A stretch of DNA of 32,000 nt from Moraxella nasicaprae (GTDB lineage Bacteria; Pseudomonadota; Gammaproteobacteria; Pseudomonadales; Moraxellaceae): the NCBI RefSeq assembly GCF_025643275.1, contig NZ_CP089977.1:1980001-2012000 (forward strand), given 5' to 3'. Each line of letters opens with the position of its first letter. The stretch's first letter is position 1. This document shows, piece after piece, positions 1-28,231 of this stretch. Under the pieces are notes generated by a model that was given only the letters and a program-made list of their open reading frames with translations, was not told where the DNA came from and ran no database searches. Both the position numbers and the translations under genes were made by a program.

Positions 1-108
1 GAAAAAGGCGGTAGTGGTATTTTTGCCATCGATTATGAAGAGTTGATGGAATATCGTGATGAATTTGCCCGCCAAGTAGAGCGAGTGACAGGTGTAGCAT
101 TAGCGTGA
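1..108 (+). CDS. prmB: 3' end of a CDS entering from upstream, probably ribosomal protein L3 glutamine methyltransferase PrmB (partial)
   Basis: Frame 1 is open from the window edge to TGA at 106-108. The tail EKGGSGIFAIDYEELMEYRDEFA resembles the recalled E. coli PrmB C-terminus (..[22 protein letters not shown]). prmB directly upstream of aroC is a conserved gammaproteobacterial arrangement. Confidence 0.5.
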   Translation, partial: EKGGSGIFAIDYEELMEYRDEFARQVERVTGVALA

Positions 109-117
109 GCAAATATG

Positions 118-152
118 ACCGCCTACTGATGGTGAGTTTGGTAGGCGGTTTT
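118..152 (+). terminator. Rho-independent terminator after the prmB-like CDS
   Basis: 9-bp stem ACCGCCTAC (118-126) / GTAGGCGGT (141-149), 14-nt loop, followed by TTTT. Confidence 0.6.
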
Positions 153-181
153 GGTCGTATTTGTGCGATTGGTTATTTGTG

Positions 182-955
182 ATGAGTTCTTTGTCCAGAC
201 ATCAACATTATCAGTTGTTAAATTTGCTTGGTTATGGATTGGCAAAATTTAATCGTGATTTTATCCAGCAGTTCAACTGCACCAATAAAGAGCAATTTTA
301 TCAATATTTTGTAGATTTTGGCATTGTAGAGACCAAAAGTGTGGTTAAAAATCGCCAAGATTTATTTGATCCATATTTTGATAATGGTCGTCAAGGTTGG
401 TGGCAGAAAAAAGAGGTCTATGAGCATAGAAAGATTTTAATTGATGGATTGTTTGGCAATGAAAATGTCATTGGCTATGCCAACATTATTAAACTGATTT
501 TGCAGAATGAGTATCAGATTGATGATTTCTTGATTAAGGAAGATATAGAGCCAATCATACAATCCAAATTCAAAAAGATGCAAGAAACTGGTTTGGAAGC
601 TGAACTTTATTTTATGCAGAATTATCAAAATATTGGGTTATTTAGTAATGGAGTTTTGCAAGACGCACGATTATTTGGCGATGGCTATGATTTTCAAATC
701 AAAACAGGTTCAAATAATTATTTAGCGGAAGTCAAAGGCATTCGCCAAAATCAGGGTAAAATTCGCTTGACTGAAAATGAGTACATCAAAGCCTGCGAGT
801 ATAAAAATGATTATATTCTGACTTTGGTGCTAAACTTAAATGAAATCCCAAGATTTTTGACGATTGAAAATCCAATTCATCAATTAAATTTTAAAGAAGT
901 AATGTTGCAATCCAAACCGATTAAAGAATATCATTTGGAGCGTGAGATATGCTGA
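182..955 (+). CDS. PD-(D/E)xK nuclease-fold protein with a DUF3883-like C-terminal domain and an uncharacterised N-terminal domain
   Basis: ORF 161..955; the first ATG is at 182 (MSSLSRHQ..), and 161 is a TTG. The C-terminal half reads GLEAELYF..GDGYDFQIK..NYLAEVKG..IRLTENEYIKA..YILTLVLN. That fits the D..(E/D)xK restriction-endonuclease-like core and the DUF3883 pattern (GyD..yiEVK..lt.nE..a..Y.ly.V). The N-terminal half has the block KNRQDLFDPYFDNGRQGWW. No clear RBS or promoter precedes it. Composition is visibly more AT-rich than aroC. Confidence 0.6.
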   Translation: MSSLSRHQHYQLLNLLGYGLAKFNRDFIQQFNCTNKEQFYQYFVDFGIVETKSVVKNRQDLFDPYFDNGRQGWWQKKEVYEHRKILIDGLFGNENVIGYANIIKLILQNEYQIDDFLIKEDIEPIIQSKFKKMQETGLEAELYFMQNYQNIGLFSNGVLQDARLFGDGYDFQIKTGSNNYLAEVKGIRQNQGKIRLTENEYIKACEYKNDYILTLVLNLNEIPRFLTIENPIHQLNFKEVMLQSKPIKEYHLEREIC

Positions 956-1197
956 CTTTTGGGCAGAAAAAAGCATTATTCTTTAAATGCTTAAATGATA
1001 AAAATGGTTCTTATGGCGACATCATTCGTGATGAAGTGATGTTTTATTTTGATGATTTGGAAAATGATTTGGGCTTCTTGGATAAATATCAATCACAAGA
1101 AGAGATAGGTCATTTTACCAATATGTTGATTTCAAAAATCATCATGAATGAACATCAAGACAGTTTAGAAAATATCCTTATGTATTATTGTCAGTAA
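949..1197 (+). CDS. Hypothetical small acidic protein (82 aa), translationally coupled to the upstream nuclease-like ORF
   Basis: Its ATG at 949 overlaps the upstream stop (ATGCTGA, stop 953-955). I recognise no family. It may be the N-terminal remnant of a larger gene that continues in another frame (see pseudogene 1152-1505). Confidence 0.4.
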   Translation: MLTFGQKKALFFKCLNDKNGSYGDIIRDEVMFYFDDLENDLGFLDKYQSQEEIGHFTNMLISKIIMNEHQDSLENILMYYCQ

Positions 1198-1505
1198 TTT
1201 TCCACCATGAAAATTCTTTCAAACAAAGATATGTCATTTGGGTTATCACACTAGATGGTCAAATTCTAACTTCAAAAGTTTGTCAAGAGAACGGCAAAGC
1301 CCTAATGACCAACCCAAATTCTGCATTGGCTGATTGGTTGTTACGCCAATGATTGAATTTAAAAGAAGGCGAATTGGCAGGTAATGAACGACTAGAATTG
1401 ATGGATTGTGATAGTGTCATTATTACCAAAATTGATGCAAATAAATATGTAATTAATAAGGCCAAATTTGGTAGTTATGAAACTTTTATTGAACAGTTAA
1501 AGTGA
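1152..1505 (+). pseudogene. Decayed gene fragment with no start codon and an in-frame TGA; possibly a B3-like DNA-binding domain of a restriction-endonuclease-type protein
   Basis: Frame 3 is open from 1152 to TGA 1503-1505 except for one in-frame TGA at 1350-1352. It reads ..[103 protein letters not shown]. There is no ATG in this frame. It overlaps the end of the 82-aa ORF in a different frame, which is consistent with a frameshift. The pattern K-A-L-x-x-P-x-x-L-x-x-W-L..L-x-L-K-E-G-E-L..D-S-V..K-I-D..Y is reminiscent, from memory only, of C-terminal B3-like domains of NgoFVII/BfiI-type enzymes. Confidence 0.35.
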
Positions 1506-19340: not shown

Positions 19341-20285
19341 ATGATGAGCGAAAAAGAGCAGGGTGGCTGGTTTGCCCGTATGAAAGCAGGGTTATCTAAG
19401 TCGAGTAAAAATCTGACTGAGGGACTGGTGAATGTCTTGGTTGGCGGTAAGGAAATCGACGATGAGCTGTTTGAGGAAGTTGAAGACCAGCTTTTGGTGG
19501 CGGATATTGGGGTCAATGCCACAAACCGCATCATCAAAAATCTGACCGAGCAGACCGCTCGTGGGGATTTGATTTATTCACATTCTTTGTATAAAGCCTT
19601 AAAATCTGAATTAACCCAAATTCTTGCACCAAAAGTTGAACCATTGGTGATTGACACCAATAAAAAGCCCTATGTGATTTTAATGGTGGGTGTCAATGGC
19701 GTGGGCAAAACCACCACCATTGGCAAACTTGCCAAACGCTTACAGGGCGAGGGTAAATCTGTGATGTTGGCGGCTGGCGATACTTTTCGGGCGGCGGCGA
19801 CAGAGCAATTACAAGTTTGGGGCGAAAGAAACGGCATTCCTGTGGTGGCACAAGGGCATGGCTCAGACAGTGCCTCGGTGATTTTTGATGCGATGCAGTC
19901 TGCCAAAGCTAAGGGCATTGATGTGTTGATTGCAGATACCGCAGGACGACTACAAAATAAAACACACCTGATGAATGAGCTTGAAAAAGTGGTGCGTGTG
20001 ATGAAAAAAGCAGACGAAACCGCTCCGCATGAGACGATGATTGTGCTAGATGCTGGCACAGGTCAAAACGCCATCAATCAGGTTCAGGTATTCTCTGAGG
20101 CTGTCAATTTGACAGGCATTAGCATCACCAAATTGGACGGTACAGCCAAAGGCGGTGTGGTGTTTAATATCGCCCAAAATACCGACATTCCTATTCGTTT
20201 TATCGGTGTGGGCGAAGGCATTGATGATTTACAGCCTTTTGAGCCGACCGAATTTGTGGACGCTTTGCTTGACAAAGATGAATGA
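19341..20285 (+). CDS. ftsY: Signal recognition particle receptor FtsY (short form, N+G domains only)
   Basis: 314 aa. GWFARMKAGLSKSSKNL membrane-targeting start, GVNGVGKTTTIGKLA, DTFRAAA, DTAGRLQ, TKLDGTAKGG. Colinear with residues from about 195 to the end of E. coli FtsY. Confidence 0.95.
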   Translation: MMSEKEQGGWFARMKAGLSKSSKNLTEGLVNVLVGGKEIDDELFEEVEDQLLVADIGVNATNRIIKNLTEQTARGDLIYSHSLYKALKSELTQILAPKVEPLVIDTNKKPYVILMVGVNGVGKTTTIGKLAKRLQGEGKSVMLAAGDTFRAAATEQLQVWGERNGIPVVAQGHGSDSASVIFDAMQSAKAKGIDVLIADTAGRLQNKTHLMNELEKVVRVMKKADETAPHETMIVLDAGTGQNAINQVQVFSEAVNLTGISITKLDGTAKGGVVFNIAQNTDIPIRFIGVGEGIDDLQPFEPTEFVDALLDKDE

Positions 20286-20814
20286 TGATATCTCCGCACC
20301 AATGGTGGGTGTGCAGTACACCCCGCCATTATCATTGCCAATGTTGCGATTGGTTGCCAATCAAAACGGACTGATTTGTCTGGCTTGGCAACCAAATTGG
20401 CAACAACCATCTGACTGGCAAGTTCATTGGCAATCTGCAAGCGAATTATCCAGCCAAGATGTTGCCCAGCATATCTTGTTGCAGACCATCAGCCAGTTGA
20501 ATGAATATTTTGCAGGACAGCGACAGCAGTTTGATGTACCGCTTAATCTACAAGTGGGTACGGTTTTTCAACAAACCGTCTGGCAAGTGTTATGCGATAT
20601 TCCTTATGGTCAAACCATCAGCTATGCACGACTTGCTCAGTTGATTGGCAAGCCCACCGCTTATCGAGCCTGTGCCAATGCCAACGGCAAAAATCCTATC
20701 AGTATCATCATACCTTGTCACCGAGTGATTGCCAGTGATGGTGGTATTGGTGGCTATACGGGCGGTCTTGACATTAAGCAAAAACTGTTACAAATTGAAT
20801 GCTCTTTTCCTTAA
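20278..20814 (+). CDS. ogt: Methylated-DNA--protein-cysteine methyltransferase
   Basis: The ORF opens at 20155 inside ftsY. ATG 20278 (MNDDISAP..) overlaps the ftsY end by 8 nt. It has the active-site motif IIPCHRVIASDGGIGGYTGG, plus the TVFQQTVWQVLCDIPYGQTISY helix-turn-wing region. Confidence 0.9.
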   Translation: MNDDISAPMVGVQYTPPLSLPMLRLVANQNGLICLAWQPNWQQPSDWQVHWQSASELSSQDVAQHILLQTISQLNEYFAGQRQQFDVPLNLQVGTVFQQTVWQVLCDIPYGQTISYARLAQLIGKPTAYRACANANGKNPISIIIPCHRVIASDGGIGGYTGGLDIKQKLLQIECSFP

Positions 20815-22523: not shown

Positions 22524-24047
22524 ATGTGCGGTGTAATCGGCATTATGTCCCATGAGCCTGTCAATCAAATGCTATATGATGGTCTGACCATGTTGCAACA
22601 TCGTGGACAAGATGCAGCTGGTATTGTAACTCTCAAAGACAATCGATTGTTTTTACGAAAAGATAATGGCATGGTGCGAGATGTATTTTTGGATAAGCAC
22701 ATGATGCGATTGGTGGGTAATTGTGGTATCGGTCATGTTCGCTATCCAACGGCTGGCACTTCAAGCACTGCCGAAGCTCAGCCTTTGTATGTCAATTCTC
22801 CTTATGGCATCGCATTGGCACACAATGGCAATCTGACCAACGCAGATGTGCTTGCCAAGGAACTGTATGAAGAGGATAGACGACATCTAAACACACAGTC
22901 AGACTCAGAGGTGTTGCTTAATATCTTTGCTCATGAGCTACAAAAAGTAAATAAAAATACTTTGCAAGCTGATGATATTTTTGAATCACTAAAAGCTGTG
23001 TATCATCGATGTCAAGGAGCGTATGCGGTGGTTGCTCTGATTACAGGGCATGGTATGTTGGCATTTCGAGATCCAAACGGTATTCGCCCTTTGGTGTATG
23101 GTCGCCGCTTGACTGATGCAGGGGTGGAATATATGGTGGCGTCAGAATCGGTGGCGTTGCAAGCACTTGGTTTTGAGCTGGTGCGTGATATTGCCCCAGG
23201 CGAGGCGATTTTTATTGACCTTAATCACAATGTCTTTACCCATCAATGTGTGGAAGTGCCAGCAGGACAGTACACACCTTGTATTTTTGAATTTGTTTAT
23301 TTTGCTCGCCCTGATTCTATTATTGATAACATTTCGGTACAAAAAGCTCGTATGCGTATGGGCGAAAGACTGGCTGAGCAAATCCTGCGTGAATGGGGCG
23401 AAAACCACGATATCGATGTTGTTATCCCAATTCCTGATACTTCTCGTAATGCAGCGATTGAGCTGGCATTACGACTGAATGTCAAATATCGAGAGGGCTT
23501 TAACAAAAATCGTTACATTGGACGCACTTTCATCATGCCTGGTCAAAGCCAACGCAAAAAATCGGTGCGTCAAAAGCTCAATGCTGTGCCATTTGAGTTT
23601 AAAAATAAAAATGTGCTGCTGGTTGATGATTCCATTGTGCGTGGCACAACTTGCCGTGAAATCATTCAAATGGCTCGTGATGCAGGGGCGAAAAATGTAT
23701 TTTTTGCGTCTGCCGCACCGCCTGTGTTATTCCCAAATGTCTATGGCATCGATATGCCCGTGCGTTCGGAGTTGATTTCATCTGGACGCAGCGTCGAAGA
23801 GGTGCGAGAAATCATCGGTGCAGACAGACTAATTTTCCAAGAGTTGGACGGCTTGATTGAGGCAGTCAAGGACACAAAGTACAGCAGGGTCGATGGTTTT
23901 GATTGCTCGGTATTTGACGGTTGTTATATTGCTGGTAAGATTGATGAGGAATATTTGGCAATCTTGCAAAACAAACGCAATGATGCCGCCAAATCCGCCC
24001 AAAGTGGCTCATCGCCTGTGGATATGACTGGCGTATCTAGCATCTGA
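22524..24047 (+). CDS. purF: Amidophosphoribosyltransferase
   Basis: ATG 22524 gives MCGVIGI, the N-terminal nucleophile Cys; 22518 is a GTG two codons upstream. Also [29 protein letters not shown], and the PRTase loop [11 protein letters not shown]. Confidence 0.95.
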
Positions 24048-24057
24048 TGATACATCA

Positions 24058-24089
24058 AATCGCTCAATATCAATTGGGCGATTTTTTAT
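24058..24089 (+). terminator. Rho-independent terminator after purF
   Basis: AATCGCTCAAT / ATTGGGCGATT stem with one wobble, followed by TTTTTATTT. Confidence 0.65.
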
Positions 24090-24145
24090 TTATCTAGGAT
24101 AATAAATGACAGTGATGTGTTATTAAGAATTATTCGCAAATTTGC

Positions 24146-24186
24146 TTGCATCTTAATTAGATTATGTTATAATATTTCTATATTGT
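24146..24186 (+). promoter_or_regulatory. ykgO promoter with an overlapping candidate Zur box
   Basis: -35 TTGCAT (24146-24151), 16-nt spacer, and an extended -10 TGtTATAAT (24165-24173). The stretch ATGTTATAATAT matches the left arm and centre of the gammaproteobacterial Zur operator (GAAATGTTATAwTATAACATTTC). The right arm is weak, so the overall match is about 14 of 23. Confidence 0.35.
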
Positions 24187-24209
24187 TAGATTATCCTAAG
24201 GAGGGAATG

Positions 24210-24350
24210 ATGCAAGTACTAAGTTCACTAAAATCTGCCAAAAACCGCCATGAAGACTGTCAAGTGGTGCGTCGTCGTGGTCGTATTTTTGTGATTTGCA
24301 AAAGTAATCCACGCTTTAAAGCGGTGCAAGGCTACAAGAAAAAGCGTTAA
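24210..24350 (+). CDS. ykgO: 50S ribosomal protein L36, type B (zinc-independent paralog)
   Basis: [46 protein letters not shown] is nearly identical in pattern to E. coli YkgO ([46 protein letters not shown]). RBS AAGGAGGG. The 77-aa ORF starting at 24117 is an upstream read-in. Confidence 0.9.
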
Positions 24351-24394
24351 TGTGATTCTAATGGCTTAATGACGATAAAGTCATTTGCTTGAAC

Positions 24395-24426
24395 AACCCC
24401 CGATTTAAATTGGGGGTTTGTTTTTG
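24395..24426 (+). terminator. Rho-independent terminator after ykgO
   Basis: AACCCCC (24395-24401) / GGGGGTT (24412-24418), followed by TGTTTTT. Confidence 0.7.
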
Positions 24427-24471
24427 ATGGATTATCGGTGTATTGTTCACATTGATGTGGCGAAGATGGAT

Positions 24472-24505
24472 AAAAAATAAAAGCACCCCAACTTGGCGTG
24501 CTTTT
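24472..24505 (-). terminator. Rho-independent terminator after the NGT-like gene
   Basis: AAAGCAC (24479-24485) / GTGCTTT (24498-24504). An A-rich tract upstream on the plus strand gives a T tract on the minus strand. It lies 10 nt downstream of the stop at 24515. Confidence 0.55.
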
Positions 24506-24514
24506 ATGGTTGAA

Positions 24515-26554
24515 TTAGGCATCGGTTTTTTTAGGTCTGCCTACCTTCTTTTTTGGTGCTTCATCGGTGGCGACTTTTTTGGGTCTGCCTACCTTCTTTT
24601 TTGGTGTATCTGCTGTCTTGGTGTCAGCTGTTTTTTTGCGAGTGCTTTTTTTGGCTGGCAGTTTAATGTCGCTGACATCAACACCATTTTTATCCGCCCA
24701 AGCGTGTAGTTTTTCAACAAAGGCTCGTCCCATCGGGCTAGGGTCGCCACTAAATAGCGTCTGCAAGCCGTTGTTATCGATGATTTGGCGACGAAGTGCA
24801 AGGCGTTCCTCGTGGTTTTCAGCCAAACGAATCACTCGCTGTACATATTCATCGACTGTATTGGCAATCAGCCATTCTGGCAAGCCCAAACGCTTAAACA
24901 AGCCTTCGTCAATGTGTTCATGAACCTCATCGCCTGTTTTACAAACACCAACCAAGCCCAGCGTGACCATGTCAATGATGCCATTGGTATTGCCAAATGG
25001 GAACGGATTGACCAACAAGTCGCAGTTATGCAAAGTAATGAGGTAATCTTGATAAGGCGAATGTGGGTGAGCTGTGGCAGAATCGCCTAAATAGCTCTTA
25101 ATAAATCGCTCAACATAAGGGTGCGTCACCCCCATTGACTGACCCAAAGCAAAGTGATAATGAATCTTGACTTTGGCGGTGTCACGAATGACACGCAAGG
25201 CATTTAGGAAATAAGGGTTTAGCTTCATGGTGGTGGAAGCAATACCAATGTTCACTACTTCTGGATTTTCACGAAGTTTATAATCAACTTTTGTTGGAGC
25301 AAGTGCTGATGGCACATAAGGTAGTGCATCTTTTGGCAAACGAATCAATTCTTCGCTAAAACATTCTTCTAAGCCAACATAATCATCTTCAACAATCACA
25401 TATTCGATGAATTCAGAATGCGTCGTACCAGGGTGTCCCAGTGCAACTGCTTGGATTGGAGCAAGGCGAGTGTTGCTGGCAAAAATCGTGGTCAAATCCA
25501 TGCCAATGCTTGGCATGTACAAAATGGCAGGTTGTACTTTGTCGCAGACATCACGAATGGCTTGAAGTTTGCTAATCACGCCTTGGTTTGAATCTGGCAA
25601 TTTGTGAAATTCATCAAAAACTTCTCTACCTAAGGCATCAACATACTCACTACCAATGCCAATGATATAAAAATGCTCTCGTGCAGCTATCATTGATGTT
25701 GAATGCGTACGATAGATGGAATGTATGGAATTAAAATGTTCTAATACCACAACCATCACAGGTTTGCCATTGATACGACCAATACTATTAACATTTCTAT
25801 CTTGCCAGTTAAGATGTGTAACAAGATAAGAGCGAATCAGTGCGTTTACGCCTTTTTTGACATCGTGTTTATTTTTGGCAGTGTCATAGCTGCAATGCAT
25901 ATATACATCATGAGTGATGTTTGAAGGAAGATTGGCTAATGAGTCTATTTCTTTTAACTTATTGGGCAGCCATTGCAGAATTGCCGCACGCTTACTGAAT
26001 GCGGCATCAGTCCCGATAAAGCGAGGGGACTGCAGGGCAAAACATAAAGAAGCACAAAGATTTTTATCGACCGCCCACAGGGCATCAAGACTGATTGAAA
26101 TTTCAGATTCTGGCAAATATAAAATACAAAATTTAATCAGCGTTGATTGTTTGTTATCAAGGATAAAATTATTTTTGTCTGATTTGTCAGGATTGATATT
26201 ATAGGTTTGCAAAATGTGGTCAGCATTAACATAAGGTGAGCTGGCAAAAATCAACGAAATCCAACGCTGATGTGCCAAAATACGAACCGCACCTGATTGT
26301 GAAATGATAAGTTCTGGATCGGTGAAAAGCTGAGTGATGGCTACTGCCATGCGAGTACAAAAATATACTGTCTGTTCGTTTGGTAGATTGGTCAGCGATT
26401 CAGGATAATCAATCTTAATGCCTTGAAGATTACCAAAATTGGCATCTAGTTTAATTAAAATATTAAGAAGCTCGCCACAGGCTTCCTCGTATTTTTTTTC
26501 TGCAACCAAAGTTTCAAAATACAATACGCTTGGCATGGTTTGAGGTTCTGACAT
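24515..26554 (-). CDS. HMW1C/NGT-family cytoplasmic protein N-glycosyltransferase (GT41) with a lysine-rich AT-hook-like C-terminal extension
   Basis: 679 aa. RBS AAGGA. Residues from about 10 to 620 are colinear with my recollection of Actinobacillus pleuropneumoniae NGT / Haemophilus HMW1C. Shared blocks include VYFCTRMA, SLIFASSPYVNADHILQTYN, LIKFCILYLPES, CASLCFALQSPRF, DVYMHCSYDT, HSIYRTHSTSMIAAR, YMPSIGMD, RLAPIQAVALGHPGTTHSEFIEYVIVEDDYVG, LRLPKDALPYVPSALAP and NPFPFGNTNGIIDMVTLGLVGVCKTG. The last 55 aa or so (KLPAKKSTRKKTADTKTADTPKKKVGRPKKVATDEAPKKKVGRPKKTDA) are additional. Confidence 0.8.
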   Translation of the reverse strand: MSEPQTMPSVLYFETLVAEKKYEEACGELLNILIKLDANFGNLQGIKIDYPESLTNLPNEQTVYFCTRMAVAITQLFTDPELIISQSGAVRILAHQRWISLIFASSPYVNADHILQTYNINPDKSDKNNFILDNKQSTLIKFCILYLPESEISISLDALWAVDKNLCASLCFALQSPRFIGTDAAFSKRAAILQWLPNKLKEIDSLANLPSNITHDVYMHCSYDTAKNKHDVKKGVNALIRSYLVTHLNWQDRNVNSIGRINGKPVMVVVLEHFNSIHSIYRTHSTSMIAAREHFYIIGIGSEYVDALGREVFDEFHKLPDSNQGVISKLQAIRDVCDKVQPAILYMPSIGMDLTTIFASNTRLAPIQAVALGHPGTTHSEFIEYVIVEDDYVGLEECFSEELIRLPKDALPYVPSALAPTKVDYKLRENPEVVNIGIASTTMKLNPYFLNALRVIRDTAKVKIHYHFALGQSMGVTHPYVERFIKSYLGDSATAHPHSPYQDYLITLHNCDLLVNPFPFGNTNGIIDMVTLGLVGVCKTGDEVHEHIDEGLFKRLGLPEWLIANTVDEYVQRVIRLAENHEERLALRRQIIDNNGLQTLFSGDPSPMGRAFVEKLHAWADKNGVDVSDIKLPAKKSTRKKTADTKTADTPKKKVGRPKKVATDEAPKKKVGRPKKTDA
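24534..24606 (-). repeat. In-frame tandem duplication (48-nt period) encoding PKKKVGRPKK, two copies
   Basis: GGTCTGCCTACCTTCTTTTTTGGTG occurs at 24534-24558 and again at 24582-24606, a 25/25 match on the plus strand. On the coding strand it encodes the GRP-core AT-hook-like motif. Confidence 0.9.
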
Positions 26555-26926
26555 AATATTTCCTTAGAAAATCAGCAAATCAGTGAATGTAAAAATTGGT
26601 CATATTATAAACATTTTTTGTTTGATAAAATAGGGAGGTCTACAAAATTCACTCATAAAAATTACACATTGATAACATTAATTTCAGCAAAATTTAAGGT
26701 TGATATATTAAAATATCATTTCATCAGCATTGTGATACAATGTATTCATTAAAATGCTTTTGTGTTTGGATTGTGATTTTTTTAAAAGCGTGTTGCTAAC
26801 AAGTCCTTGATGGCAAGCCAAGTTGCAAGTTAAGCCAAATTGATATTTGCTTTTTGTCGCCTTAGGATAAATAATTCATTTAATCCAAACCGTCTTATTA
26901 TTGCTTGAATTTTAATCGGAGTTCGT

Positions 26927-27358
26927 ATGAAAAAAATCGCATTAGCGTCAGTAGTCGCTGCTTTGGTTGCAGGCTTGACAGCGTGTAACAATACCCCAGC
27001 AGCCAGCGAAGTGGTACTACCAAAAAGCCAAAACAACACCGCTGTTGTCAATCAACCAGCGGCAAATACTGCCGTCAACTCACATGCAGTTGCCAACCAA
27101 ATCAGCCCAATTTCAAGCCTTGCCAATGCTCGTGATGAAAGCATGGTTCGCTTGCAAGGCAAAGTGGTGCGTGCCTTGCCAGATGAAAAATACGAATTTG
27201 CTGATGCCACAGGCACGGTCATTGTGGAGATTGACCACGAATTATGGATGGGTCGTGCCATCACGCCAAATGATGTGATTACTATTGTTGGCGAGGTTGA
27301 TGTTGAATATCGTCCAACCAAACAAGTCATCATCGATGTTCAAAGCATTGAGTTTTAA
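26927..27358 (+). CDS. YgiW/YdeI-family OB-fold (BOF) stress-tolerance lipoprotein
   Basis: 143 aa. RBS GGAG. Lipoprotein signal MKKIALASVVAALVAGLTA|C. The C-terminal OB-fold block is VRLQGKVVRALPDEKYEFADATGTVIVEIDHELWMGRAITPNDVITIVGEVDVE, which fits the YgiW pattern (V.l.G.i...l..d.Y.F.D.tG.i.veID...w). Confidence 0.8.
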   Translation: MKKIALASVVAALVAGLTACNNTPAASEVVLPKSQNNTAVVNQPAANTAVNSHAVANQISPISSLANARDESMVRLQGKVVRALPDEKYEFADATGTVIVEIDHELWMGRAITPNDVITIVGEVDVEYRPTKQVIIDVQSIEF

Positions 27359-27395
27359 TCAGATGCGTTAAGCACATCGCTCATTAGCAAAATAA

Positions 27396-27437
27396 AAAAG
27401 CACAAGATACGACTTGGTATTTTGTGCTTTTATTTTT
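27396..27437 (+). terminator. Rho-independent terminator after the YgiW-like gene
   Basis: AAAAGCACAAGATAC / GTATTTTGTGCTTTT long stem with one wobble, followed by ATTTTT. Confidence 0.7.
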
Positions 27438-27511
27438 GAGCAAAAATCATTAAAATGATTGATAAAGAGGTAAAAAATCACTGAATCAACCATCAAAAAT
27501 AAGATGACATC

Positions 27512-28231
27512 ATGAAACAAACCAAAGATTTTCTTCCTGCTTGGGTGCTGCTTGGTGCGGTAGTGCTGGCATTTTGTGCAGGGATTTTAAATACAACGGC
27601 TTTGATGGGATTTACGCATGTATCAGCATCACATGTTACAGGCAATGTCAGTGCAATATCGGTGGCGATTTTGTCGGGTGATTGGGCAAATGCTAAGTTA
27701 TTTTTGATGTCGATTTTTTCATTTTGGCTTGGTTCGGTGCTTAGCGGCATGATTATTGGTTCAAGTGAATTAAACATCACACGGCATTATGGCTATGCCA
27801 TGTATCTAGAAGTGGTGCTATTGGGATTAAGTCTTGCTTTATACCTTAATAACAACGAATACGGGCAGATGATGATTGCAATGGCGTGCGGATTGCAAAA
27901 TTCAATGGTGGCGACTTATGGCGGAGCGGTGGTTAGAACGACACACTTGACGGGCACGACATCAGACTTGGGGGCGACGGTGGGTAATTGGCTGGTGGGT
28001 CGAAAGGTTAGTCTAAGCAAGGTGATTTTGCACAGCGGTCTGTGGTGGGCATTTTTCTTTGGCGGGTTTTTGGCGGTGGTGCTATATCGGCAGATGGGTT
28101 ATTTGTCGATGACTGTGCCGATGGGCATTATTTTGGTGGCGGCAATCAGCTATACTCGCATGGATAAATGGTACAATGCCGCCCAAAGAGCGGCACTTCG
28201 CCAGCGACTGTTTCGAAAAAAGCATCGTTAG
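27512..28231 (+). CDS. YoaK-family (DUF1275) inner membrane protein
   Basis: 239 aa with about 6 TM segments. LAFCAGILNTTALMGFTHVSASHVTGNVS and ACGLQNSMVATYGGAVVRTTHLTGTTSDLG are the characteristic DUF1275 blocks. Confidence 0.75.
   Translation: MKQTKDFLPAWVLLGAVVLAFCAGILNTTALMGFTHVSASHVTGNVSAISVAILSGDWANAKLFLMSIFSFWLGSVLSGMIIGSSELNITRHYGYAMYLEVVLLGLSLALYLNNNEYGQMMIAMACGLQNSMVATYGGAVVRTTHLTGTTSDLGATVGNWLVGRKVSLSKVILHSGLWWAFFFGGFLAVVLYRQMGYLSMTVPMGIILVAAISYTRMDKWYNAAQRAALRQRLFRKKHR

What the first reader, a model, noticed from the sequence alone, without database searches (positions are those of the whole stretch)
24515..26554. Stand-alone HMW1C/NGT-type cytoplasmic N-glycosyltransferase embedded in a housekeeping block
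The 679-aa ORF is colinear over about 600 residues with the GT41 enzymes that attach hexose to Asn in NX(S/T) sequons in the cytoplasm (Haemophilus HMW1C, Actinobacillus pleuropneumoniae NGT, Kingella and Aggregatibacter homologues). In Haemophilus the gene sits in hmw1ABC next to its adhesin substrate. In A. pleuropneumoniae it sits beside an alpha-1,6-glucosyltransferase. Here the gene is monocistronic, with its own RBS, its own terminator and a roughly 370-bp very AT-rich upstream region. It is convergent with ykgO and divergent from a small lipoprotein gene, and it lies between purF and folE. No adhesin, two-partner-secretion gene or second glycosyltransferase is in the window. The target proteins, and the role of N-glucosylation in this lineage, therefore cannot be read from synteny and may be uncharacterised.
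Basis: partly seen in the sequence, partly recalled or inferred. Interest (0 to 1): 0.7.

Follow-up and report, generated by a model that had tools for sequence, protein, structure and literature searches.

The report
Stand-alone cytoplasmic N-glucosyltransferase in Moraxella
The gene is a genuine, apparently fully functional copy of a known bacterial enzyme that attaches glucose to asparagine on surface adhesins inside the cell; it is already named as such in RefSeq and its lone arrangement is already documented, so it is largely ordinary apart from its unusual host family, a DNA-hook-like basic tail and a conserved neighbour gene.

Summary
ORF 24515-26554 (-) encodes a 679-aa protein that passes the NCBIfam equivalog model for UDP-glucose:protein N-beta-glucosyltransferase (1164 bits; cut-off 1000). 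It is 70% identical to ApNGT over about 620 residues and keeps every UDP-Glc-binding and sequon-reading residue I checked. It is 100% identical to RefSeq WP_263076277.1 of Moraxella nasicaprae, which already carries that name. It is monocistronic in a housekeeping block. No adhesin, TPS gene, rimO or second glycosyltransferase is in the window. Stand-alone HMW1C homologues acting on distant trimeric autotransporters were shown in 2015 (Kingella, Aggregatibacter), so the arrangement is not new.

- The gene sits inside the Pasteurellaceae/Neisseriaceae NGT radiation, where 70 of 82 loci are rimO-ngt. This implies old inter-family transfer.
- In at least five Moraxella-type lineages it is divergently paired with a YgiW/BOF lipoprotein gene and shares a conserved promoter footprint.
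- It has a disordered basic tail (net +12) holding two K-K-K-V-G-R-P-K-K AT-hook-like units. One unit is conserved in a relative about 70% identical.

The substrates remain unknown because the rest of the genome could not be searched. Verdict: new member of a known kind, modest interest.

The parts
24515..26554 (-). ngt coding sequence, 679 aa (UDP-glucose:protein N-beta-glucosyltransferase, HMW1C-like, GT41)
25826..26533 (-). N-terminal all-alpha domain (aa 8-243; Pfam HMW1C_N + HMw1_D2), containing the sequon-reading R178 and D216-V-Y-M219
   Evidence: residue roles from PMC10507012 and PMC10466321
24695..25771 (-). GT-B catalytic region (aa 262-620) with H278, S279, R282, H374, T441, K444, Q472, H498, Y504, N524, D528
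24518..24688 (-). Disordered basic C-terminal tail (aa 623-679; 19 K+R, net +12, pI 10.3) absent from ApNGT/AaNGT
   Evidence: (pLDDT below 30 for aa 637-679)
24566..24601 (-). AT-hook-like unit 1, KKKVGRPKKVAT (aa 652-663)
   Evidence: (Pfam AT_hook 16.8 bits, cut-off 17.4)
24518..24553 (-). AT-hook-like unit 2, KKKVGRPKKTDA (aa 668-679)
   Evidence: direct reading
24527..24606 (.). Two 32-nt copies, 97% identical and spaced 48 nt: a tandem duplication that created the second AT-hook-like unit
   Evidence: family D1
24477..24507 (-). Intrinsic terminator hairpin of ngt, followed by a U-run
   Evidence: (I4)
26552..26566 (-). RBS (AAGGA) and ATG start of ngt
26604..26609 (-). TATAAT -10-like hexamer, invariant in five lineages, about 50 nt upstream of the ATG
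26624..26644 (-). Conserved upstream block TGTAGACCTCCCTATTTTATC (GTAGA...CT.TTTTATC kept in all five lineages)
26680..26698 (-). Conserved upstream block CTTAAATTTTGCTGAAATT, identical in window, L001, L087 and L093
26555..26926 (.). 372-bp AT-rich (28% GC) divergent intergenic region shared by ngt and the BOF gene
26927..27358 (+). YgiW/BOF-family OB-fold lipoprotein gene (143 aa; lipobox LTAC followed by sequon NNT), the conserved divergent partner of ngt
27512..28231 (+). DUF1275 membrane protein gene, downstream of BOF in all lineages where that side could be seen
24210..24350 (+). Type-B ribosomal protein L36 paralogue (ykgO-like), convergent with ngt; its own terminator lies at 24395-24418

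Best explanation
This is the Moraxella nasicaprae orthologue of the soluble cytoplasmic N-glycosyltransferase NGT (HMW1C-like, GT41). It most likely uses UDP-glucose to form a beta-N-glucosyl-asparagine at Asn-X-Ser/Thr sequons of not-yet-exported proteins. By analogy with all characterised cases, these would be type V secreted adhesins, most plausibly trimeric autotransporters, encoded elsewhere in the genome. Shown here: family membership, domain architecture, intact donor- and sequon-binding residues, an independent transcription unit with a conserved promoter region and a terminator, and absence of rimO, agt, an adhesin or a TPS gene at the locus. Inferred: that the enzyme is active, that its donor is UDP-Glc, and that its substrates are distant adhesins. 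The gene falls within the Pasteurellaceae/Neisseriaceae NGT radiation. It was probably acquired by an ancestor of a Moraxella sublineage, landed next to the BOF-DUF1275-folE-fabI block, and has been inherited there since. Its basic tail with conserved K-K-V-G-R-P-K-K unit(s) is a lineage-specific form of the lysine-rich tail common in Pasteurellaceae NGTs. The tail probably tethers the acidic enzyme to a polyanion (nucleic acid or anionic membrane). That step is speculative.
For: Family membership:
- NCBIfam equivalog NF049992 scores 1164.5 bits against a cut-off of 1000, over aa 8-620.
- Pfam finds HMW1C_N, HMw1_D2 and GT41.
- PDB hits ApNGT and AaNGT at E=0 to 1e-302 over the full length.
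- The AF2 model's best Foldseek hits are 3q3e, 8p0q and 8j30, at E about 1e-64.

Functional residues:
- All 24 mapped ApNGT positions carry the wild-type residue. They include K441->K444 (K441A abolishes activity, PMC5303269), the UDP contacts H495, Y501, N521 and D525 (PMC10466321), and the sequon dyad R177/D215 with the DVYM motif (PMC10507012).

Identity and precedent:
- The protein is 100% identical to RefSeq WP_263076277.1, which carries the same name.
- Precedent for a stand-alone gene with distant TAA substrates: PMC4550697.
- TAAs with 17-45 sequons per 1000 aa lie 2-5 kb from ngt in four Pasteurellaceae loci.

Transfer and residence:
- The core is 66-75% identical to Pasteurellaceae and Neisseriaceae NGTs. 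Pasteurellaceae NGTs are 67-90% identical among themselves.
- No Moraxellaceae is among the best 80 genome loci.
- rimO lies immediately upstream in 70 of 82 relatives but is not in the window.
- Three other Moraxella species lack ngt after purF.
- L089 has BOF-DUF1275-folE-fabI without ngt.
- The ngt-BOF pairing and the promoter blocks are conserved in L001, L087, L093 and L091.
Against: - No activity, donor or substrate was or could be tested.
- The AF2 model is only of moderate quality (mean pLDDT 68.5, 12-sequence alignment), so it adds little beyond the sequence identity.
- The NJ tree is star-like, so neither donor lineage nor direction of transfer is resolved.
- The AT-hook Pfam score is just below threshold.
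Confidence: 0.85

Rival explanations
1. The divergently transcribed YgiW/BOF lipoprotein is a dedicated local substrate of NGT. Its Asn in the sequon immediately after the lipidated Cys would be glucosylated in the cytoplasm before Sec export, and the two genes would be co-regulated from the shared intergenic region.
For: The divergent ngt-BOF pairing is kept in five lineages while the other flank changes. All seven lipoprotein-type BOF homologues keep an N-x-S/T within four residues of the lipobox Cys although the residues themselves vary: C-NNT, C-NST, C-TNTT, C-NNMS, C-ENVS. The N-terminal linker is low-complexity and probably flexible, which suits NGT. The intergenic region carries conserved blocks.
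Against: The two BOF homologues without an adjacent ngt (L089, L090) also keep the sequon. Lipoprotein linkers are generally rich in N, S and T, so a sequon there is not rare. There are only two sequons in the window protein, 14 per 1000 aa, against 17-45 per 1000 aa in the sequon-rich TAAs found beside ngt. The lineages are related, so adjacency may simply be inherited. All known NGT substrates are type V adhesins (PMC4550697).
Confidence: 0.1
2. The locus is a decayed remnant of an hmw1ABC/etpBAC-type two-partner-secretion cluster or of the rimO-ngt-agt operon, and the enzyme is an orphan with no remaining role.
For: The gene is detached from rimO, which precedes ngt in 70 of 82 relatives. 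No partner gene is in the window.
Against: tblastn finds no rimO remnant. No TPS or adhesin fragments are present, and DNA similarity to Pasteurellaceae ends at the ngt core. All catalytic residues are intact. The gene, its promoter blocks and its position are conserved across lineages whose NGTs have diverged to about 58-70% identity. That is not expected of a functionless relic.
Confidence: 0.03
3. The basic AT-hook-like tail gives the enzyme a second, nucleic-acid-directed role. It could tether NGT to the nucleoid, to mRNA or to ribosomes so that nascent adhesins are glycosylated co-translationally. It could also bind AT-rich DNA, such as the gene's own 28%-GC upstream region, as a regulator.
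For: The tail has net charge +12 on an acidic core of net -16 and is predicted disordered. The unit K-[KR]-K-V-G-R-P-K-K-V is conserved between the window and L087, although the rest of the tails does not align. The unit was recently duplicated. Lysine-rich tails occur in about 70 of 82 loci of this clade, which is usually operonic with the ribosomal-protein modifier rimO. They are rare elsewhere in the family, 3 of 150 representatives.
Against: The Pfam AT_hook score is below its cut-off, 16.8 against 17.4. The core is V-G-R-P rather than canonical R-G-R-P. ApNGT and AaNGT work without any tail. Basic tails could equally bind anionic lipids, or merely aid solubility. There are no binding data, and no paper in the searched library mentions such a tail.
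Confidence: 0.12

Closest known systems
Actinobacillus pleuropneumoniae NGT (ApNGT; PDB 3q3e, 3q3h, 8j30)
   Same: 70% identical and colinear over about 620 aa. Same AAD plus GT-B architecture. All mapped donor- and sequon-binding residues are identical.
   Different: ApNGT is 620 aa with no basic tail. It is transcribed in a rimO-ngt-agt operon with an alpha-1,6-glucosyltransferase (PMC5303269). Here there is no rimO and no agt, the gene has its own promoter and terminator, and the protein has a 57-aa basic tail.
Kingella kingae HMW1C(Kk) and Aggregatibacter aphrophilus HMW1C(Aa)/AaNGT (PDB 8p0o-q)
   Same: Stand-alone HMW1C homologues flanked by unrelated cytoplasmic-protein genes, acting on trimeric autotransporters (Knh, EmaA) encoded far away (PMC4550697). 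This is the closest model for how the window gene is expected to work. AaNGT is 68% identical to it.
   Different: The A. aphrophilus gene still follows rimO. AaNGT is 621 aa with no tail. The hosts belong to Neisseriaceae and Pasteurellaceae, not Moraxellaceae. Substrates in Moraxella are unidentified.
Haemophilus influenzae HMW1C (hmw1ABC) and ETEC EtpC (etpBAC)
   Same: Same enzyme family and same chemistry: hexose on Asn in NXS/T, in the cytoplasm.
   Different: Those genes are encoded inside a two-partner-secretion cluster next to their adhesin substrate. No TPS gene is in the window or in the syntenic relatives.
Lysine-rich-tailed NGT orthologues of H. parainfluenzae, H. ducreyi, Rodentibacter, Ursidibacter, Mannheimia and Bibersteinia
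   Same: C-terminal extensions of 40-70 aa with 30-38% K+R beyond the ApNGT end.
   Different: Those tails have no GRP core (0 of about 70), and the genes are mostly rimO-linked. The Moraxella-type tails carry one (L087) or two (window, L001) K-K-V-G-R-P-K-K units.

Membership tests
NGT / HMW1C-like N-glycosyltransferase (CAZy GT41; NCBIfam NF049992) | Full-length match to the curated equivalog model above its cut-off | tested here: met
   1164.5 bits against a cut-off of 1000, aa 8-620 on model positions 2-613 of 614
NGT / HMW1C-like N-glycosyltransferase (CAZy GT41; NCBIfam NF049992) | N-terminal all-alpha domain plus C-terminal GT-B fold | tested here: met
   Pfam HMW1C_N, HMw1_D2 and GT41. 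The AF2 secondary structure has a helical N-terminus followed by alternating beta/alpha elements. Best Foldseek hits are ApNGT and AaNGT at E about 1e-64, TM 0.64-0.69. The model quality is only moderate.
NGT / HMW1C-like N-glycosyltransferase (CAZy GT41; NCBIfam NF049992) | UDP-sugar binding residues (ApNGT K441, T438, H495, Y501, N521, D525, H277/S278) | tested here: met
   K444, T441, H498, Y504, N524, D528, H278 and S279 are all identical.
NGT / HMW1C-like N-glycosyltransferase (CAZy GT41; NCBIfam NF049992) | Sequon (+2 Ser/Thr) recognition dyad Arg177/Asp215 and the DVYM motif | tested here: met
   R178 and D216-V-Y-M219 are present and invariant in 12 orthologues
NGT / HMW1C-like N-glycosyltransferase (CAZy GT41; NCBIfam NF049992) | Soluble cytoplasmic protein (no signal peptide or membrane span) | tested here: met
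   The N-terminus MSEPQTMPSVLYFETLVAEKKYEE is polar and aligns from residue 3 with the soluble ApNGT. This is by direct reading; no dedicated predictor was run.
NGT / HMW1C-like N-glycosyltransferase (CAZy GT41; NCBIfam NF049992) | Transfers hexose from UDP-Glc/Gal to Asn of NXS/T in acceptor proteins | not testable with these tools
   Needs an enzyme assay or glycoproteomics
hmw1ABC / etpBAC-type TPS glycosylation cluster | NGT gene adjacent to TpsA adhesin and TpsB transporter genes | tested here: not met
   No such domains in the 20 window ORFs scanned against Pfam, nor in the syntenic L001
rimO-ngt-agt operon (A. pleuropneumoniae type) | rimO immediately upstream and an alpha-1,6-glucosyltransferase (agt) immediately downstream, co-transcribed | tested here: not met
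   Both flanking genes are on the opposite strand. tblastn finds no rimO similarity in the window. No second GT domain is present. rimO is upstream in 70 of 82 relatives.
Stand-alone HMW1C homologue acting on a distant trimeric autotransporter (K. kingae / A. aphrophilus type) | No acceptor gene at the locus | tested here: met
   Same in L001, L087, L093 and L091.
Stand-alone HMW1C homologue acting on a distant trimeric autotransporter (K. kingae / A. aphrophilus type) | A sequon-rich type V adhesin elsewhere in the genome that depends on the enzyme | not tested
AT-hook DNA-binding motif (Pfam PF02178) | Match above the Pfam gathering score; G-R-P core flanked by basic residues | tested here: inconclusive
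   16.8 bits against a cut-off of 17.4, E = 0.0056, for aa 652-663. The GRP core with K-K-K and K-K flanks is present twice, but the residue before G is V, not R. Binding is not testable here.

The most novel reading that the evidence does not exclude
In a Moraxella sublineage a horizontally acquired NGT has been rewired. It is detached from rimO, placed under its own conserved promoter back-to-back with a YgiW/BOF stress lipoprotein gene, and equipped with a conserved AT-hook-like tail. The most novel reading not excluded is that the tail tethers the enzyme to nucleic acid or ribosomes for co-translational N-glucosylation, and/or that the BOF lipoprotein, which is not a type V adhesin, is a dedicated substrate. 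Either would extend NGT biology beyond adhesins.
Probability: 0.12. Interest if true: 0.65.

Novelty: new member of a known kind. Interest (0 to 1): 0.3.

Why it matters
NGTs are virulence-linked, because adhesin function depends on them, and they are widely used glycoengineering tools. An orthologue in Moraxellaceae extends the family's host range to a genus of animal upper-airway commensals and pathogens, and it points to gene exchange with Pasteurellaceae that share that niche. In practice the gene flags M. nasicaprae as likely to make N-glucosylated surface adhesins. The widespread lysine-rich tail, and its AT-hook-like form here, is a feature I did not find discussed in the papers searched. 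It is absent from the two enzymes with solved structures. If the tail affects localisation or processivity, it would matter both for biology and for enzyme engineering. None of this changes the basic picture. The identification itself is routine and is already in RefSeq.

Tried and rejected
1. A clean 'empty site' for ngt next to purF. Three other Moraxella species keep ftsY-ogt-pyrD-cvpA-purF and then continue with an SLT-type transglycosylase, so synteny simply breaks there. The useful comparator came from the other side instead: L089 has efeUOB next to BOF-DUF1275-folE-fabI.
2. rimO remnants upstream of ngt: none found.
3. Mobile-element boundaries or flanking repeats around ngt: only short chance-level repeats, apart from the 48-nt tail duplication and the terminator hairpin.
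4. Sigma-70 consensus scan for an ngt promoter: no minus-strand hit in the intergenic region. The promoter was inferred from the five-lineage alignment instead. My first alignment had two sequences in the wrong orientation and was discarded.
5. An Rfam scan of 23900-27500 found nothing meaningful.
6. Sequon enrichment among window ORFs as a hint to substrates: none found. The 519-aa protein with a weak OMP beta-barrel Pfam hit has only 2 sequons (3.9 per 1000 aa) and is not an adhesin candidate; my reading of it as FadL-like was not tested.
7. Literature on a lysine-rich NGT tail, on Moraxella NGT, or on HdNGT/MhNGT: nothing relevant in the searchable library.
8. The structure prediction added little. 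The model was mediocre (pLDDT 68.5) because the alignment was shallow.
9. Identifying adhesin substrates in M. nasicaprae was not possible with the capped searches.
Full report
**Observation.** The start is supported by an invariant M1 in an alignment of 12 orthologues and by an AAGGA Shine-Dalgarno sequence 7 nt upstream. The neighbours are as described. On one side, all on the plus strand, lie ftsY, ogt, pyrD, cvpA, purF and a 46-aa type-B L36 paralogue. The minus-strand ORF follows. On the other side lie a 143-aa YgiW/BOF-family lipoprotein gene (+), a DUF1275 gene (+), folE (-), fabI (+) and an MFS transporter (-). Both flanking genes are on the opposite strand, so the ORF must be monocistronic. 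Its stop is followed after 7 nt by a hairpin (24477-24507, -16.7 kcal/mol, z = -4.4 against shuffles) and a U-run. The upstream intergenic region is 372 bp at 28% GC, against 43% for the window. Further upstream the window holds mfd, aroC, thiE, an ABC-F ATPase, a lipid A acyltransferase and a protein with a weak OMP beta-barrel hit. There is no adhesin, two-partner-secretion gene or second glycosyltransferase. No ORF is enriched in N-X-S/T; the window mean is 4.9 per 1000 aa.

**What it is.** The protein scores 1164.5 bits on NCBIfam NF049992, the equivalog model 'UDP-glucose:protein N-beta-glucosyltransferase' (cut-off 1000), over residues 8-620. It carries Pfam HMW1C_N, HMw1_D2 and GT41. 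It aligns end to end with the crystallised A. pleuropneumoniae and A. aphrophilus enzymes at E = 0 to 1e-302. I mapped the residues that published structures and mutagenesis define as functional:
- K441, whose K441A change abolishes activity (PMC5303269).
- The UDP contacts K441, H495, Y501, N521 and D525, and the D215-V-Y-M motif (PMC10466321).
- The Arg177/Asp215 dyad that reads the +2 Ser/Thr, together with His276/Ser277, Arg280, His370, Thr437, Lys440, Asn520 and Asp524 of AaNGT (PMC10507012).

All 24 positions mapped carry the wild-type residue in the window protein, and overall identity to ApNGT is 70%. An AlphaFold model from a shallow alignment was mediocre (mean pLDDT 68.5). It still retrieved ApNGT and AaNGT as best structural matches at E about 1e-64, far ahead of the O-GlcNAc and SPINDLY transferases. 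The family assignment is therefore secure, and nothing suggests an inactive copy.

**Already known.** The sequence is 100% identical to WP_263076277.1 of Moraxella nasicaprae, on a 2.1-Mb contig. RefSeq names it exactly as above. GenBank called it hypothetical and UniProt calls it 'Adhesin'. The organism belongs to Moraxellaceae, Moraxellales. The 'stand-alone' layout that motivated the finding is also documented. Rempe et al. [quoted passage not shown] They noted that all known targets are type V adhesins (PMC4550697). The most likely mechanism here is the same: cytoplasmic transfer of glucose from UDP-Glc to Asn in N-X-S/T of adhesin precursors before export. That step is an inference. I could not search the remaining 2.07 Mb of the genome for adhesins.

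**Comparative context.** A scan of one genome per species found 301 loci encoding relatives. The best 80 were almost all Pasteurellaceae at 62-72% identity, plus one Neisseria and one Conchiformibius MAG, and no Moraxellaceae. In 70 of the 82 loci analysed, rimO sits immediately upstream, either overlapping or no more than 69 bp away. This is the known rimO-ngt(-agt) operon (PMC5303269). The downstream genes vary and are housekeeping by my reading of their sequences (asd, lysA, a low-molecular-weight phosphatase, glmS); these were not scanned against a domain library. In four loci a trimeric autotransporter with 17-45 sequons per 1000 aa lies 2-5 kb from ngt. This agrees with the expected substrate class. 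The window has no rimO, not even a remnant, and DNA similarity to Pasteurellaceae loci stops at the edges of the ngt core, 24649-26565 at about 70%. In an NJ tree the Moraxella protein falls inside the star-like Pasteurellaceae/Neisseriaceae clade. Its identity to those proteins (66-75%) matches the identities among Pasteurellaceae themselves, which range from 67% to 90% with a median of 75%. For an accessory gene in a different order of Gammaproteobacteria, this indicates inter-family transfer. The donor and direction are not resolved.

**Residence in Moraxella.** The gene is not a recent arrival. A Moraxella sp. relative (L001; NGT 87% identical; its cluster includes WP_303119226.1) is fully syntenic over 17 kb. 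Three further uncultured lineages from public read-set assemblies have ngt divergently adjacent to an orthologue of the same BOF lipoprotein gene. These are L087 (NGT 68% identical, BOF 62.5%), L093 (NGT N-terminus 58%, BOF 73%) and L091 (BOF 57%, with a recognisable NGT N-terminus). DUF1275 lies downstream of BOF where the contig extends that far. In L087 the other flank differs from the window. Two more distant BOF homologues lack an adjacent ngt. L089 has efeUOB next to BOF-DUF1275-folE-fabI, which looks like the pre-insertion (or post-loss) state. L090 has a different context. Three named Moraxella species (M. nasovis, M. haemolytica and the GCA_002014855.1 species) keep ftsY-ogt-pyrD-cvpA-purF but then continue with a lytic transglycosylase gene and no ngt. 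So ngt lies at a synteny breakpoint, attached to the BOF side.

**Promoter footprint.** I aligned the ngt-BOF intergenic regions of the five lineages. A first attempt with two sequences mis-oriented was discarded. The corrected alignment shows three conserved elements:
- An invariant TTATAAT, with the TATAAT at 26609-26604, about 50 nt before the ATG.
- A conserved GTAGA-N8-CT.TTTTATC block at 26644-26624.
- A 19-nt block, CTTAAATTTTGCTGAAATT, at 26698-26680, identical in four lineages.

The 19-nt block occurs in none of the other 90 loci held. The consensus promoter scan had found nothing on this strand, and Rfam finds no RNA family here. I read this as a conserved dedicated promoter and regulatory region. 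Its regulator is unknown.

**The tail.** Beyond the end of ApNGT the protein continues for 57 residues: NGVDVSDIKLPAKKSTRKKTADTKTADTPKKKVGRPKKVATDEAPKKKVGRPKKTDA. The tail has 19 K+R, a net charge of +12 and a pI of 10.3, on a core with net charge -16 and pI 5.8. It is predicted disordered, with pLDDT below 30. Pfam's AT_hook model hits residues 652-663 just under its cut-off, at 16.8 against 17.4 bits. An identical KKKVGRPKK follows at residues 668-676, inside the second unit (aa 668-679). It was created by a 48-nt tandem duplication whose two 32-nt copies are 97% identical. Lysine-rich tails of 40-70 residues turn out to be the rule in this clade, occurring in about 70 of 82 loci, including H. 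parainfluenzae, H. ducreyi, Rodentibacter, Ursidibacter, Mannheimia and Bibersteinia. They are rare among the wider family, 3 of 150 representatives at 50% identity. They are absent from both enzymes with solved structures. None of the Pasteurellaceae tails has a GRP core. The Moraxella-type tails do: K-[KR]-K-V-G-R-P-K-K-V is shared by the window and L087, although the rest of their tails cannot be aligned. This suggests selection on the motif. I found no paper in the searchable library that links HMW1C with a lysine-rich tail, and the processivity study of ApNGT and HiNGT does not mention one. What the tail binds, whether nucleic acid, ribosomes or anionic membrane, is open. I rate a nucleic-acid or ribosome-tethering role at about 0.12.

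**The BOF lipoprotein as a possible substrate.** All seven lipoprotein-type homologues carry an N-x-S/T within four residues after the lipobox Cys, although the residues vary: C-NNT, C-NST, C-TNTT, C-NNMS, C-ENVS. This, together with the conserved divergent pairing, makes a local-substrate hypothesis worth recording. However, the two homologues without an adjacent ngt keep the sequon too. Lipoprotein linkers are generally rich in N, S and T. The lineages are related. And every known NGT substrate is a type V adhesin. I give this about 0.1.

**Verdict.** The novelty was overestimated: the enzyme family, its chemistry, the stand-alone arrangement and even this protein's name are already on record. 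It is a new, uncharacterised member of a known kind in an unusual host family. It has three modestly interesting features: old horizontal acquisition with loss of the rimO linkage, a conserved promoter and BOF partnership, and an AT-hook-like version of a clade-wide basic tail. Interest 0.3.

Noticed in passing
window 24518-24688 (-); also loci L004-L083: Lysine-rich disordered C-terminal tails of 40-70 aa (30-38% K+R) are present in about 70 of 82 NGT loci of the Pasteurellaceae/Moraxella clade. They are absent from ApNGT and AaNGT, the only NGTs with solved structures, and from most distant family members (3 of 150). No mention was found in the papers searched.
   Followed up: partly
window 24527-24606: A 48-nt tandem duplication (32-nt copies, 97% identical) inside the tail-coding region doubles the KKKVGRPKK unit. 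The same duplication is present in L001.
   Followed up: yes
window 26624-26698 (-); L001 4779-4797; L087 484-502; L093 338-356: Conserved non-coding blocks upstream of ngt (CTTAAATTTTGCTGAAATT and GTAGA-N8-CT.TTTTATC), kept across lineages whose NGT proteins differ by 30-40%. They are probably a regulator binding site for ngt and/or the divergent BOF gene. The factor is unknown.
   Followed up: partly
window 26927-27358 (+); P0391-P0397: The YgiW/BOF lipoprotein family next to ngt is rare: only 12 homologues at E<=1e-8 among 5.8 billion proteins. Every lipoprotein-type member has an N-x-S/T sequon within four residues after the lipobox Cys.
   Followed up: partly
L008 and L077 (Ursidibacter arcticus): One genome carries two NGT paralogues. 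One is a 701-aa ORF as called (RefSeq lists the U. arcticus enzyme at 689 aa), lysine-tailed and behind rimO. The other is a 622-aa tail-less copy followed 9 bp later by a GT2-family glycosyltransferase, an agt-like arrangement.
   Followed up: partly
L030 6746-9590, L054 3311-7591, L079 1705-5529, L007 11911-16568: Trimeric autotransporter adhesins (ESPR, YadA head/stalk/anchor) with 17-45 N-X-S/T per 1000 aa lie 2-5 kb from ngt in four Pasteurellaceae genomes. They are plausible local substrates there. L079 is labelled A. actinomycetemcomitans, a species reported to lack an HMW1C homologue (PMC4550697), so the label or that statement deserves a check.
   Followed up: partly
window 24210-24350 (+), upstream 24100-24209: A type-B (zinc-independent type) L36 paralogue stands alone, without a ykgM/L31 partner, behind a 27%-GC region containing TGTTATAATAT and a repeated TTAGATTAT. 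In other bacteria such paralogues are Zur-regulated. No Zur box was tested here.
   Followed up: no
window 1-1500: An AT-rich stretch (32-37% GC against 43% for the window) holds a 264-aa ORF (161-955) with a NOV_C (NO VEIN C-terminal) domain. It is possibly foreign or defence-related DNA next to aroC.
   Followed up: no
window 20155-20814 (+) against 19341-20285 (+): The longest ogt ORF (GTG start) overlaps the end of ftsY by 131 bp. The relatives' genes are 174-196 aa, so the true ogt start is probably downstream of the listed one.
   Followed up: no
window 24515-26554 (-): NGT itself contains a single N-X-S/T in 679 residues (1.5 per 1000 aa against a window mean of 4.9). This is possibly avoidance of self-glycosylation. 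It is not statistically tested.
   Followed up: no
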